Of a DNA stretch of 64,000 bases, positions 1 to 3,000 are shown one piece after another. The notes under the pieces were generated by a model. That model saw nothing but the letters and a program-made list of their open reading frames with translations, ran no database searches and was not told the DNA's origin. Positions within the stretch are counted from its first letter, which is position 1; each line of letters starts with the position of its first letter. Source of the stretch: Escherichia coli (GTDB taxonomy: Bacteria > Pseudomonadota > Gammaproteobacteria > Enterobacterales > Enterobacteriaceae); the NCBI RefSeq assembly GCF_013122565.1, contig NZ_CP053258.1; one strand, 5' to 3'. The position numbers and the translations under genes were made by a program.

Positions 1-3000
1 AATGGTGATGCTTTTCGCCACTTCCGGGCTGGTGGTGTCGACCACCACGTTTTGCGTTGCGGTCTGCCCGACATTCCCCGCCAGATCCACCACCCGCACC
101 GTGTAGTTCCAGGTGCCGTCGGTAAGCGTGCGACCATCGGCATAGCTCCAGCTGGTGCCGATAACGGTTAACGTAGTCCAGGTAACACCGCCGTCGAGGC
201 TGATTTGCGCCCGTTCATCTGCCGCCAGCGCCGCGCCGAGCGTGCCACGCACGGTCAGCGTGGTGTCGCGAGTAACGAAATCGCTGCTGCTTAACCCGGT
301 GTCATCGCTGATGCCCGCAATGGCGATGGTTTTGCTCGCCAGCGGCGCGGTGGTGTCCACAGTGACTATCTGGCTGGCGGTGGCGCCGATATTTCCGGCG
401 GTATCGATCACCCGCACCTGGTAGTTGTAGTTGCCGTCGGTCAGCGTCCGCCCGTCAAGATAGCTCCAGGTCAAACCACTTACCGAAAGATTCTGCCAGG
501 TGGTGCCGCCATCAATGCTGATTTGCGCGAACTCACCGGCAGAAAGCGCCGCGCCCAGCGTGCCGCTCACCGCAAGCGTCGTGTCGCTGGTGACAAAATC
601 GTTAGTGATCAGGCCCGTATCGGTAGTGATCGCGCTGATGGCGATGGTTTTCACCGCGGGATCTGGCGCGGTAGTGTCGATCACCACATTCTGGCTGTCG
701 GTCGCGCCAACGTTGCCCGCTGCGTCAATCACCCGCACCTGATAGAGATAGTTACCATCGGTCAGCGTGCGGCTGTCGTTATAGCGCCAGGTCGTGCCGG
801 TAACGGTGAGCGTGGTCCAGGTTACGCCGCCGTCGATACTGATTTGCGCCGTCTCGTTACTGGCAAGCGCGGCGGTGAGCGAGCCGTTGACCACCACCGG
901 GCTGACGCTGGTGATAAAGTCGCTGGCGCTAAGCCCAGTGTCGGCTTGCAGGGAATCGATATTAATACCCATCGCCGGGGCGCTGAGATCGACAGTAATG
1001 GTGTGATTGCTGCTGCCGTTGTTGCCGATAGCGTTGCTCACCGAGGCGTTAATCACGTAGGCGTTGCCGTCCGCCAGCGCGGTGACATCGGCGCTGCCGA
1101 GGGTGTAGCTCCAGCTACCGCCGGTCTGTACCGTGGTGGTGTAGGTTTTACCGTTTAAAGTCAGGGTCAGCGTCTGTCCGACCGGCGCGGTGGTGGTGCC
1201 GCTGATAACCAAAGACGAGCCGTGTTCCGCTGCATTCACCACATCGTCGCCCGCAAAGGTGTTGATGGTGATGGTAGGCACATCGCCGTTCAACGTGACG
1301 CCACGGCTGGCGCTGCCGGGGTTTCCGGCCTGATCGGCGACCGTCGCGCTAATGGTGTAGCTGCCGTCGCTTAATCCGGCAAACTGCTGCGCCGGAATAA
1401 ACACCGACCAGCTTCCGCCGCTGCCGACCGTTGCGGTCCAGGTTTGCCCGTTAAAGGTAACGGTCACCGTCTGGCCCACTTCGGCGGTGGTGGTGCCGCT
1501 GATGGTCTGCCCGGCAAGCTGCTCGGCGTTGTTGATAATATCGTCACCCGCCACCGTGGCGATGGTCACCGTTGGCGCAACGGTATCGACGGTCAGGGCG
1601 TGCGTGGTTTGACCGGGGTTACCGGCGCGATCGTTCACGCTGGCGGTAATGGTCTGCGCACCCTGCCCGAGCGCGGCCAGATCCGCCGCAGGCACGTTCA
1701 GCGCCCAGGTGCCATTGGCGGCAACCGTGGCAGTGTAAGTTTTGCCGCCAAAGGTCACGGTGACCGTCTGCCCTACTTCCGCGCTGGTCGAGCCGTTAAG
1801 GGTTAACGGCTGCTGCTGTTCGGCGGCGTTGAGTCGGTCGTCCGTTGAAACGGTGTTTATGCTGATAATCGGCGCGGTGAGATCCACCGCCACGCTGCGC
1901 GAGGCCGTGGCGCTGTTTCCGGCACTGTCCTGCGCGGAGGCGCTAACCGTATAGCTGGTGCCATCCGCCAGTGCTGCAACGTCCGCCGCAGGCACATTCA
2001 CGCTCCAGCTCCCGTTGCTCTGAATGGTAGCGCTGTAGCCTTTGCCGTTAAGCAATACGGTCACCACTGTACCTGCGGCAAAGTTCGTTCCGGTGCCGCT
2101 CAGGGTCAGCGCACTGCCCGCTTCGGCGGCGTTAATAAGGTTATCGCCGCTGATAGTGCTGACCGAGAGCGACACTGCTGCCGTGTTTACCTGTACGTTG
2201 TGCGTCTGGGTGCTGCTGTTGCCTGCGCTATCGGTGATAGTGGCGCTGATAGTCACTGTGCCGTCTGCAAGGCCGGAAATCACGCTGGCAGGCACGCCGA
2301 CGCTCCAGTTGCCGCTGGCATCGGTGCTGGTGACATACTGCTGCCCGGCGATGGTCACCACCAGGCGGTCGCCCGCGACCGCGCCCGTGGCGGTGCCGCT
2401 GATAATCTGCGCCTGAGTGTGTTCGACGTTGTTAATCACATCATCGCCCGCCACGGTGTTGAAACTGATCACCGGCGCAGTGGTATCAACGGTCACACCT
2501 TTGCTGGCGCTGCCAGGGTTACCCGCCAGATCGCTGACCGTGGCGGTCAGGGTGTAGCCGTTATTAGCAAGTGCGGTTAAGTCGGTGGCGGGCAGCGTTA
2601 AACTCCAGCTGCCGTCCGCCTGCACCGTGGTCTGGTAGTTAGTGCCGTTAAGCGTGACGGTGAGCGTCTGCCCGGTTTGCGCGGTGCTGGTGCCGGACAC
2701 CGTTACGCCCGCCGCCGCTTCGCTGGCGTTGATGATGTTATCGCTGGCAATGGTGTTGATGGTGACCGTTGGCGCGGCGCTATCGACGCTGTATTCGTGC
2801 GTTGCCGTGGCGCTGTTACCGTTGACGTTAGTCACCCGCACCTGGGCGCTGGCATCGCCGTCACGCAGAGCCGCCATATCCGCAGCCGGAACGGTGGTAC
2901 TCCAGCTACCGTTTGCCGCCACCGTGGTGGTGTAGGTTTTACCGCCAAAGGTAATAGTGACGGTTTGCCCCGTTTCGACGCCGGACGTGCTGCCGGAGAG

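What the first reader, a model, noticed from the sequence alone, without database searches (positions are those of the whole stretch)
1..1400. Left-edge repeats form a separate subfamily from the central cassette array
Track ORFs at 155, 500 and 794 (MPITVNVVQVTPPS..., MPVTVSVVQVTPPSILICA...) show a ~300-bp period but a sequence family not seen in the 1.8-kb cassettes. The N-proximal units (about 14.2-16.5 kb) also depart from the cassette pattern. The protein therefore appears to have at least three repeat zones, which in other giant adhesins correspond to functionally distinct stalk and tip regions.
Basis: seen in the sequence. Interest (0 to 1): 0.35.

Follow-up and report, generated by a model that had tools for sequence, protein, structure and literature searches.

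The report
Distinct distal repeats in SiiEA adhesin
The left edge of the window encodes three ~106-residue SiiE-type Ig-like repeats that follow a 52-unit stalk inside the already catalogued E. coli giant secreted adhesin SiiEA. The repeat zones are real, but this is the ordinary layout of such adhesins.

Summary
Window 1-17376 (minus strand) is the first 5,792 codons of siiEA, a known type I-secreted giant adhesin (O-island 28 of EHEC). It is 98% identical to annotated E. coli proteins. Clustering of all 56 units gives three families:
- one Big_6/Big_13-like unit (U00);
- 52 "Ca_tandemer" units of 99-102 aa (U01-U52), made of 6 singletons, 7 cassettes of 6 units with a 1,794-nt period, and 4 singletons;
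- three 106-107-aa "DTGxSxxDF" units (U53-U55) at window 22-978.

The left-edge units are 60-67% identical to each other and about 28% to all others. They fail the Ca_tandemer model (22-24 bits, cutoff 50) and fit Pfam Big_13 over its full length. Their only solved relative is Salmonella SiiE BIg50-52. The other 52 units match the Marinomonas ice-adhesin extender (4P99).

Three corrections apply. The quoted "ORFs" at 155, 500 and 794 are antisense shadow frames. The family boundary is at 978/979, not 1400. The N-proximal and C-proximal divergent units belong to the same family as the cassettes.

In the O55:H7 ortholog this zone continues for two more units. It then leads into FG-GAP repeats, RTX repeats and a type I secretion signal. 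It is therefore most likely the distal, Ca2+-stiffened end of the stalk. Known gene and known domain types, so low novelty.

The parts
1..17376 (-). siiEA-type giant adhesin gene: first 5,792 codons (ATG at 17376), open through the left edge of the window. About 1,130 further codons are expected beyond it.
   Evidence: Single open frame 17406..1. NCBIfam NF047714 'BapA-related adhesin SiiEA' scores 503 bits against a cutoff of 425. 96% DNA identity to annotated siiEA in 958 of 5,426 E. coli genomes. The O55:H7 ortholog is 6,925 aa.
1..21 (-). First 7 codons (VAKSITI) of a fourth DTG-type unit, cut by the window edge.
   Evidence: The ortholog continues with 'AAKSITITGISDDTGTSSSDFITSD...'.
22..339 (-). 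U55, DTG/SiiE-type BIg unit (aa 5680-5785).
   Evidence: Pfam Big_13 54.1 bits over positions 12-102 of 102; Ca_tandemer only 22.3 bits. AF2 pLDDT about 95.
340..657 (-). U54, DTG/SiiE-type BIg unit (aa 5574-5679).
   Evidence: Big_13 44.6 bits and Ca_tandemer 23.8 bits. 67% identical to U55. Foldseek top 6 matches of the U54-U55 model are SiiE 2YN5/2YN3.
658..978 (-). U53, first DTG/SiiE-type BIg unit (aa 5467-5573); the family boundary lies at 978/979.
   Evidence: Big_13 49.6 bits and Ca_tandemer 22.7 bits. DNA repeat families change at about 978.
979..2181 (-). U49-U52: four divergent Ca_tandemer units, not in cassette register (C-proximal flank of the extender).
   Evidence: Best identities 54-63%. 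U52 scores 91.8 bits on Ca_tandemer. U52 matches MpIBP RII 4P99. 297-nt period.
2182..14757 (-). U07-U48: seven cassettes of six Ca_tandemer units (period 1,794 nt / 598 aa).
   Evidence: Best matches lie at lags that are multiples of 6. Same-register identity is 0.71 against 0.45 for different registers. Six register clusters appear at a 55% identity cut. Autocorrelation peaks at 1794. 4P99 E=7e-56.
14758..16551 (-). U01-U06: six divergent Ca_tandemer units (N-proximal flank of the extender).
   Evidence: Best identities 47-62% with no register. U03 scores 87.4 bits on Ca_tandemer. 4P99 E=1e-56.
16552..16851 (-). U00: single Big_6/Big_13-type Ig-like unit with a 'TDDTTPTFSG' motif.
   Evidence: Big_6 46.1 bits, Big_13 44.1 bits, Ca_tandemer 33.6 bits (below cutoff). 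It clusters alone. Closest to the 'TDDTTP' unit that follows the DTG zone in the ortholog.
16852..17376 (-). N-terminal BapA prefix-like domain plus a Gly/Ala-rich hydrophobic segment and linker (aa 1-175).
   Evidence: Pfam BapA_N 69.7 bits; NCBIfam biofilm_BapA_N 70.3 bits. Sequence.
17479..18834 (-). TolC-family outer-membrane component of the cognate type I secretion system, directly upstream on the same strand.
   Evidence: ORF of 451 aa. Annotated as a TolC family outer membrane protein at the matching place in E. coli genomes.

Best explanation
Window 1-978 (minus strand) encodes the first three of about five tandem 106-107-residue Ig-like domains of the Pfam Big_13 / Salmonella SiiE BIg type. 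They carry the motif DTGxSxxDF[IV]T ... W ... DxAGN ... VDTTAP.

These domains lie at the far (C-distal) end of the 52-unit MpIBP-RII-type 'Ca_tandemer' extender of the known giant adhesin SiiEA, which is the type I secretion substrate of O-island 28.

Shown here:
- The units are a separate domain family by sequence, HMM score, length and predicted fold.
- In a 98%-identical ortholog they are followed by two degenerate Big_13-like units, an FG-GAP repeat region, RTX nonapeptides and a VC_A0849-type C-terminal secretion signal.

Inferred from SiiE and MpIBP:
- The protein leaves the cell C-terminus first.
- These domains fold outside the cell on binding Ca2+ at acidic inter-domain sites, which helps pull the chain out.
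- They then form a rigid distal rod segment that connects the long extender to the presumed ligand-binding C-terminal region and holds that region beyond the LPS layer.

The remaining 'zones' (N-proximal, cassette, C-proximal) are one family. They differ only in that the central 42 units have been homogenised in a 6-unit register.
For: Gene identity: NF047714 scores 503 bits (cutoff 425). DNA is 96% identical to annotated siiEA, in the synteny copA-glsA-ybaT-TolC-siiEA-ABC-HlyD-cueR. The locus is required for EHEC adherence and colonisation and is Ca2+-responsive (PMC12758282).

Separate family:
- Pairwise identity is 0.62 within the zone and 0.28-0.30 to every other zone, and UPGMA gives 3 clusters.
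- Ca_tandemer scores 22-24 bits for U53-55 against 72-108 bits for the other Ca_tandemer units tested (cutoff 50). Big_13 matches U53-55 at 45-54 bits over its full length, against 0-33 bits and partial matches for those other units.
- DNA periods are 318/321 nt against 297-300 nt.
- Reciprocal PDB results: U53-55 hit only SiiE BIg50-52 (2YN3, E=8e-8). Cassette, N-proximal units and U52 hit MpIBP RII 4P99 (E=1e-56, 7e-56 and 5e-46), with SiiE absent at E<=0.001 for the cassette and N-proximal zones.
- The AF2 model of U54-55 has pLDDT 94.9. Its top 6 Foldseek PDB hits are all SiiE (E=5e-13, 26-29% identity), and 4P99 is not in the top 50.
- The four-domain junction model (pLDDT 93.6) is an all-beta string whose best matches are RTX-adhesin extender fragments.

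Conserved as a type: homologous three-unit stretches at 46-67% identity occur in Enterobacter, Comamonadaceae, Hydrogenophaga, Pseudomonas, Acinetobacter and Burkholderia T1SS proteins, all Big_13.

Position next to the tip: the ortholog C-terminus has further Big_13 matches, FG-GAP_3 x3 (74 bits), HemolysinCabind and T1SS_VCA0849.

Ca2+ inference: the HMMER alignment to SiiE matches the N-terminal acidic pair, W74, D97-x-A-G-N101 and D117. These are the features named for SiiE in PMC6272769 and PMC5466336. The Asp of DxAGN and the Asp of VDTxxP are >=90% conserved across homologs.
Against: - The part of the protein beyond the window edge was not seen; its content is taken from an ortholog.
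- No Ca2+ binding, rigidity or secretion role was tested. Model coordinates could not be inspected, so the geometry of the site is unknown, and the SiiE D43 position aligns two residues out of register.
- The two families are not unrelated. U53-55 still give weak Ca_tandemer hits (E about 1e-4), and Ca_tandemer units give partial Big_13 hits, so this is a subfamily split within one Ig-like superfamily.
- A passive 'rod' role is not distinguished from a direct binding role, and in SiiE the distal BIg domains are themselves needed for adhesion.
Confidence: 0.72

Rival explanations
1. The left-edge units are themselves a ligand-binding (lectin-like) tip module rather than a passive spacer. In Salmonella SiiE, BIg domains bind GlcNAc and sialic-acid glycans, and the SiiE-specific type II Ca2+ sites matter for adhesion only in the most distal C-terminal domains.
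For: The closest solved relative by sequence and by fold is SiiE BIg50-52. The N-terminal D...D pair of the DTG motif aligns with the region of the SiiE type II site. Peters et al. 2017 show that loss of type II sites in BIg47-52 abolishes adhesion, while loss in BIg1-5 hardly matters (PMC5466336). In SiiEA this domain type occurs only in the distal zone. The zone is 98.5% conserved between the window and O55, against 94.9% for the cassettes.
Against: The ortholog has a dedicated FG-GAP region downstream that is a more obvious ligand-binding candidate. Identity to SiiE is only 26-29%. The first acidic position of the pair is Asp only in U55; it is T in U54 and A in U53. No binding data exist. 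The O157:H7 allele of this zone is only 83% identical, so the zone is not under uniformly strict conservation.
Confidence: 0.2
2. There is no functional distinction. The left-edge units are simply old copies of the same repeat that escaped homogenisation and drifted, like U01-U06 and U49-U52.
For: There are weak cross-hits between the models (Ca_tandemer E about 1e-4 on U53-55; partial Big_13 hits on Ca_tandemer units). Both are all-beta Ig-like domains in one rod. The flanking singletons show that non-homogenised copies do exist.
Against: The non-homogenised Ca_tandemer singletons still score 87-92 bits on Ca_tandemer and 42-47% identity to the cassette units. U53-55 drop to 22-24 bits and 28% identity. 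The units differ in length (106-107 against 99-102 aa) and in N-terminal motif. The type is conserved at 46-67% identity across distant genera. The nearest solved structures differ and are reciprocal.
Confidence: 0.07
3. The + strand ORFs quoted by the first reader (starts at 155, 500, 794) are real small repeated genes.
For: They exist mechanically and repeat with the same period.
Against: They are antisense to an unbroken 5,802-codon frame whose product matches curated families at E down to 1e-177. The + strand ORFs tested have no Pfam match. All E. coli annotations place one CDS on the other strand.
Confidence: 0.01

Closest known systems
E. coli SiiEA (NCBIfam NF047714, 'BapA-related adhesin SiiEA'; O-island 28 RtxA28/RtxB28 = Z0609/Z0615 of EHEC O157:H7; ECUMN_0527 of UMN026)
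   Same: It is the same gene. The N-terminal model scores above cutoff. Protein identity to the O55:H7 RM12579 ortholog is 95-99% per zone, with the same unit count and register and the same neighbours (TolC-family gene, ybaT, glsA, copA). The locus is shown experimentally to mediate early adherence (PMC12758282).
   Different: The window copy is 3-4% diverged in DNA from every complete E. coli genome searched. It carries a lineage-specific gene conversion between cassettes 5 and 6. The published work did not resolve unit types or zones; it used CDD 'Ig-like domains' only.
Salmonella enterica SiiE (SPI-4; 53 BIg domains; PDB 2YN3/2YN5)
   Same: It is the closest solved relative of the left-edge units by sequence (E=8e-8) and by fold (top 6 Foldseek hits, 26-29% identity). 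Both share DxAGN, a conserved W, a terminal Asp and an N-terminal acidic motif. Both are T1SS-secreted giant adhesins of enterobacteria.
   Different: SiiE is built almost wholly of this domain type and has N-terminal coiled-coil heptads. SiiEA uses the type only for about 5 distal units and has a BapA-type N-terminus, an MpIBP-type extender and an FG-GAP region. Identity is low, and the Ca2+ sites are not verified.
Marinomonas primoryensis ice-binding adhesin MpIBP (RII extender, PDB 4P99/5IRB) and other RTX-adhesin extenders (6XI3, 6XI1)
   Same: The 52 Ca_tandemer units match RII (E=1e-56). The overall plan is the same: N-terminal anchor, long monotonous extender, distinct C-terminal domains, RTX repeats and a T1SS signal.
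   Different: The MpIBP extender is about 120 near-identical copies of one unit. SiiEA has a 6-unit super-repeat with divergent flanks. The left-edge units do not match RII (4P99 is absent from the top 50).
Salmonella BapA (SPI-9 biofilm-associated protein)
   Same: It shares the N-terminal BapA prefix-like domain (PF22783, NF033677). Salmonella Ig-like repeat fragments, not annotated as BapA, match the left-edge zone at 29-33% identity.
   Different: As I recall (not tested here), BapA lacks the Ca_tandemer extender array and is about half the size. The relation is at the level of shared domain families only.

Membership tests
SiiEA (NCBIfam NF047714, whole gene) | N-terminal 229-residue model at or above the curated cutoff (425 bits) | tested here: met
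   503.1 bits, residues 1-234 matching model positions 1-229.
SiiEA (whole gene) | Chromosomal locus with a dedicated T1SS (TolC-family gene upstream; ABC transporter and HlyD downstream, next to cueR) | tested here: inconclusive
   The TolC-family gene, ybaT, glsA and copA are present in the window in the same order as in E. coli. The ABC and HlyD genes lie beyond the left edge and were seen only in orthologous loci L001 and L002.
RTX adhesin (T1SS-secreted giant adhesin) | Long extender of tandem Ca2+-dependent Ig-like repeats | tested here: met
   52 Ca_tandemer units. The three 600-892-aa segments scanned (N-terminal, one cassette, C-terminal) score 506-574 bits on NF033510. 4P99 E=1e-56.
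RTX adhesin (T1SS-secreted giant adhesin) | C-terminal RTX nonapeptide repeats and an uncleaved T1SS signal | not testable with these tools
   The C-terminus is outside the window. In the O55:H7 ortholog, HemolysinCabind scores 24.1 bits and TIGR03661 T1SS_VCA0849 scores 34 bits, both above cutoff.
Ca_tandemer repeat (NCBIfam NF033510), for the left-edge units U53-U55 | Score at or above 50 bits | tested here: not met
   22.7, 23.8 and 22.3 bits, against 72-108 bits for U03, U12, U14, U15 and U52.
Pfam Big_13 (PF19077), for U53-U55 | Score at or above 27 bits with near full-length coverage of the model | tested here: met
   49.6, 44.6 and 54.1 bits, covering about positions 9-102 of 102.
SiiE-type BIg domain, for U53-U55 | Fold and sequence closest to SiiE BIg domains | tested here: met
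   phmmer finds only 2YN3 (E=7.7e-8). Foldseek ranks 1-6 are 2YN5/2YN3, E=5.5e-13, TM about 0.5, 26-29% identity.
SiiE-type BIg domain, for U53-U55 | Conserved Ca2+-site residues (type I: D43, D97, D117; type II: D16, D24) plus W74 and D97-x-A-G-N101 | tested here: inconclusive
   By alignment, W, DxAGN, the terminal VD and the second Asp of the N-terminal pair all have counterparts. The D43 position is two residues out of register. The first Asp of the pair is present only in U55. Model coordinates could not be inspected.
SiiE-type BIg domain, for U53-U55 | Ca2+ binding that rigidifies the rod and supports secretion | not testable with these tools
   Needs biochemistry; inferred from PMC5466336.

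The most novel reading that the evidence does not exclude
SiiEA is a deliberate chimera. An MpIBP-type extender is capped by a short run of SiiE-type BIg domains that are themselves a Ca2+-dependent, lectin-like host-glycan binding module, as the distal BIg47-52 domains of SiiE appear to be. If so, the zone at window 1-978, rather than or together with the FG-GAP region, is what determines host attachment by O-island 28. The 83%-identical O157:H7 allele of the zone would then reflect a shift in host or ligand.
Probability: 0.15. Interest if true: 0.4.

Novelty: already known. Interest (0 to 1): 0.15.

Why it matters
The main value is as a correct annotation. The report fixes the strand, the frame and the unit map of a 17-kb repetitive gene that is easy to misread. 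It also shows that the 'zones' are one extender family plus a short distal run of a second, SiiE-like domain type.

For work on the O-island 28 adhesin, which was recently shown to be needed for early EHEC adherence, the unit map shows which segments are interchangeable spacers and which are candidates for specific function: the DTG zone and the FG-GAP region. That is useful because full-length complementation was reported to be technically impossible, and truncated 'two Ig-like domain' constructs were used without regard to unit type (PMC12758282). Nothing here challenges current understanding of RTX adhesins.

Tried and rejected
- Tandem Repeats Finder on 1-17500 returned nothing. The units are 62-93% identical in DNA (most pairs below about 75%) and the cassette period exceeds its 500-nt limit, so repeats were mapped from protein motifs, pairwise alignment and autocorrelation instead.
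- An Rfam scan of 1-19000 found no RNA family.
- A full-text search for 'SiiEA' gave only one relevant paper, a gene-table mention. Searching by the locus tags Z0615 and OI-28 found the functional study.
- The search for homologous proteins returned mostly short fragments of giant proteins. These were good enough for an alignment for structure prediction but not for comparing whole-protein architectures across taxa.
- I considered using the second structure job on the off-window FG-GAP region or on U00. I used it on a pure DTG pair instead, because the four-domain model could not separate SiiE-type from RII-type similarity.
- I considered a genome-contig scan to name the source organism and judged it not worth the cost.
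- Cassette copy-number variation between strains was looked for and not seen in three intact alleles (20,775-20,778 nt). The sample is too small to conclude anything.
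Full report
WHAT IS THERE. The minus strand of window 1-17406 is one uninterrupted frame of 5,802 codons that runs off the left edge. The start codon is at 17376 (MSLIIDVISRK...), giving 5,792 residues inside the window. They are antisense shadows of this frame, and the + strand ORFs tested (155-400, 523-1158, 8920-9756) have no Pfam match. No Rfam family lies in 1-19000.

IDENTITY OF THE GENE. The N-terminus scores 503 bits on NCBIfam NF047714, 'BapA-related adhesin SiiEA' (cutoff 425). It also contains the BapA prefix-like domain. Window 1-3000 is 96% identical to annotated siiEA in 958 of 5,426 complete E. coli genomes, always chromosomal. The flank has the E. coli order copA | glsA | ybaT | TolC-family gene | siiEA. 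In the orthologous loci the gene is followed by a T1SS ABC transporter, a HlyD adaptor and cueR. The O55:H7 RM12579 ortholog is 6,925 aa, so about 1,130 residues of the window's protein lie beyond the edge. This locus is O-island 28 of EHEC O157:H7. [quoted passage not shown] The name siiEA goes back to the UMN026 annotation 'adhesin for cattle intestine colonization' (PMC3256949).

A motif anchor (D[DN]x[ILV]N..E) recurs every 99-102 residues from residue 288 to 5377. A different anchor (DTGx..DF[IV]T) occurs at residues 5479, 5586 and 5692. This defines 56 units. All-against-all global alignment and UPGMA give exactly three clusters at a 35% identity cut: {U00}, {U01-U52} and {U53-U55}. At a 55% cut, units U07-U48 fall into six register classes, that is, seven cassettes of six units. 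Mean identity is 0.71 within a register and 0.45 between registers. U01-U05, U37, U49, U51 and U52 remain singletons, and U06 and U50 join a register class only weakly.

Mean identity between zones is as follows. The left-edge units are 0.62 to each other and 0.28-0.30 to every other zone. The N-proximal, cassette and C-proximal zones are 0.42-0.49 to one another.

DNA agrees with the protein result:
- Direct-repeat family D1 has three copies spaced 318 and 321 nt within 26-849. A different family with 297-300-nt spacing starts at 1108.
- Autocorrelation peaks at 318 nt in 1-978 (0.486 against 0.304, sd 0.027), at 297 nt in 979-2181, and at 1,794 nt in the cassette zone.
- The best ungapped match of U54 DNA anywhere else in the gene is 40%.

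The boundary is 978/979 rather than 1400, and the N-proximal divergent zone is 14758-16551 (plus U00 at 16552-16851) rather than 14.2-16.5 kb. A fourth zone, the four divergent units U49-U52 at 979-2181, was missed.

WHAT THE FAMILIES ARE. Per-unit HMM scores separate the families cleanly. Ca_tandemer (NF033510, cutoff 50) gives 72-108 bits for U03, U12, U14, U15 and U52, but 22-24 bits for U53-55. Pfam Big_13 gives 45-54 bits over its full length for U53-55, but 0-33 bits over a partial length for the others. U00 is Big_6 (46 bits) and Big_13 (44 bits).

Sequence searches of solved structures are reciprocal. The cassette, N-proximal units and U52 match the Marinomonas ice-adhesin extender RII (4P99) at E=7e-56, 1e-56 and 5e-46. 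For the cassette and N-proximal zones SiiE is not among the hits at E<=0.001. U53-55 match only Salmonella SiiE BIg50-52 (2YN3, E=7.7e-8).

AlphaFold2 models built on 40 homologs are confident. The U52-U55 model has pLDDT 93.6 and is an all-beta string of four domains. The U54-U55 model has pLDDT 94.9. Foldseek of the four-domain model finds RTX-adhesin extender fragments first: 4P99, 2YN5, 6XI3, 5IRB and 6XI1. For the pure left-edge pair the top six matches are all SiiE (E=5.5e-13, 26-29% identity), and 4P99 is not in the top 50.

Stretches homologous to the three left-edge units, at 46-67% identity, occur in T1SS proteins of Enterobacter, Comamonadaceae, Hydrogenophaga, Pseudomonas, Acinetobacter and Burkholderia. 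The type is therefore conserved in its own right and is not a decayed Ca_tandemer copy.

CONTEXT BEYOND THE EDGE. In the ortholog the DTG-type units number five, at residues 5475-5990. They are followed by two degenerate Big_13-like units, one of which is the closest relative of U00. After these come a region with three FG-GAP_3 matches (74 bits), RTX nonapeptides and a TIGR03661 C-terminal T1SS target domain. The left-edge zone is thus the transition from the extender to the C-terminal functional end.

HOW IT MOST LIKELY WORKS. The family split, the Ig-like rod fold and the position in the ortholog are shown. The mechanism is inferred from named systems. T1SS substrates exit C-terminus first. 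In SiiE, Ca2+ bound by conserved Asp residues at BIg interfaces (type I: D43, D97, D117) drives secretion and rigidity. The SiiE-specific type II sites (D16, D24) matter for adhesion only in the distal BIg47-52 domains (PMC5466336, PMC6272769).

In the alignment to SiiE, the left-edge units have counterparts of W74, D97-x-A-G-N101, D117 and the second Asp of the N-terminal pair. The D43 position is out of register, and the first Asp of the pair is present only in U55. The Asp of DxAGN and of VDTxxP, and the G and T of the DTG...T motif, are >=90% conserved among homologs.

The best reading is therefore a Ca2+-stiffened distal stalk segment that links the 52-unit extender to the ligand-binding end. 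A direct lectin-like role, on the SiiE precedent, is the main rival at about 0.2.

EVOLUTIONARY SIDE EVIDENCE. Against the O55:H7 protein, the flanks and the left-edge zone are 97.5-99% identical and the cassettes 94.9%, with the same unit count. One pair of units in the window has been homogenised recently: U32-33 and U38-39 are 92% identical in DNA against 74% at the same places in O55. This fits concerted evolution confined to the cassette zone. Three intact alleles are 20,775-20,778 nt.

COMPARISON AND NOVELTY. The gene is a catalogued and experimentally studied E. coli adhesin. Both repeat families are curated (Big_13, Ca_tandemer) and have solved relatives. A zoned plan of anchor, extender, distinct distal domains, RTX repeats and signal is the standard plan of RTX adhesins such as MpIBP. 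The only addition here is a precise unit map and the note that SiiEA joins an MpIBP-type extender to a short SiiE-type distal run, which the published CDD-level description did not resolve. I rate this as already known and of low interest (0.15).

VERDICT. The period, the separate family and the cassette and N-proximal contrasts are right. The strand, the quoted peptides and the boundaries are wrong. The stalk-versus-tip assignment rests on an ortholog's C-terminus and on analogy with SiiE and MpIBP.

Noticed in passing
window 4873-5472 (U38-U39) and 6670-7269 (U32-U33): These two 600-nt stretches are 92% identical in DNA, while other unit pairs one cassette apart are 62-89%. In the O55:H7 ortholog the same two places are only 74% alike, and the window's U38-39 is closer to O55 U32-33 (86.5%) than to O55 U38-39 (74%). 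This looks like a recent intragenic gene conversion between cassettes 5 and 6 in the window's lineage.
   Followed up: partly
L003 (O157:H7 E32511) and L006 (O145 RM8995-C1): siiEA is annotated as a pseudogene with an internal stop in O157:H7 and O145 reference-quality genomes. The 2025 functional paper treats the two pieces (Z0609, Z0615) as two separate RTX proteins. The O157:H7 allele of the left-edge zone is only 83.4% identical to the window and matches at two places.
   Followed up: partly
window 1-17376 versus 18000-64000: The giant gene has 59-62% G+C against about 45-56% (up to 59% in one 2-kb bin) for the rest of the window. This foreign composition is consistent with the gene being part of an O-island absent from K-12.
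   Followed up: no
window 17300-24300: The housekeeping flank (TolC-family gene, ybaT, glsA, copA) reaches at most 97.5% identity to any of 5,426 complete E. coli genomes. That is low for E. coli against so large a panel, so the window may come from a poorly sampled Escherichia lineage. The source organism was not determined.
   Followed up: no
window 16552-16851 (U00) and L001 (ortholog residues about 5990-6200): The odd first unit U00 ('TDDTTPTFSG' motif, Big_6/Big_13) is most similar (30% over 103 aa) to the 'ATDDTTPLLNG' unit that follows the DTG zone in the ortholog. The same minor unit type therefore brackets the whole repeat region.
   Followed up: partly
window about 16900-17000 (residues about 128-155): A Gly/Ala-rich hydrophobic stretch (FPWGWLAGAAVGGGALGALLASGGDGD) sits between the BapA prefix-like domain and the first Ig-like unit. 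It could be a membrane- or pore-retained segment. It was not analysed.
   Followed up: no
L001, L004, L005 (intact siiEA alleles): Three intact alleles are 20,775-20,778 nt, and the left-edge zone always lies 3,414 nt from the stop codon. Despite the 1.8-kb cassettes, no copy-number variation was seen in this small sample.
   Followed up: partly
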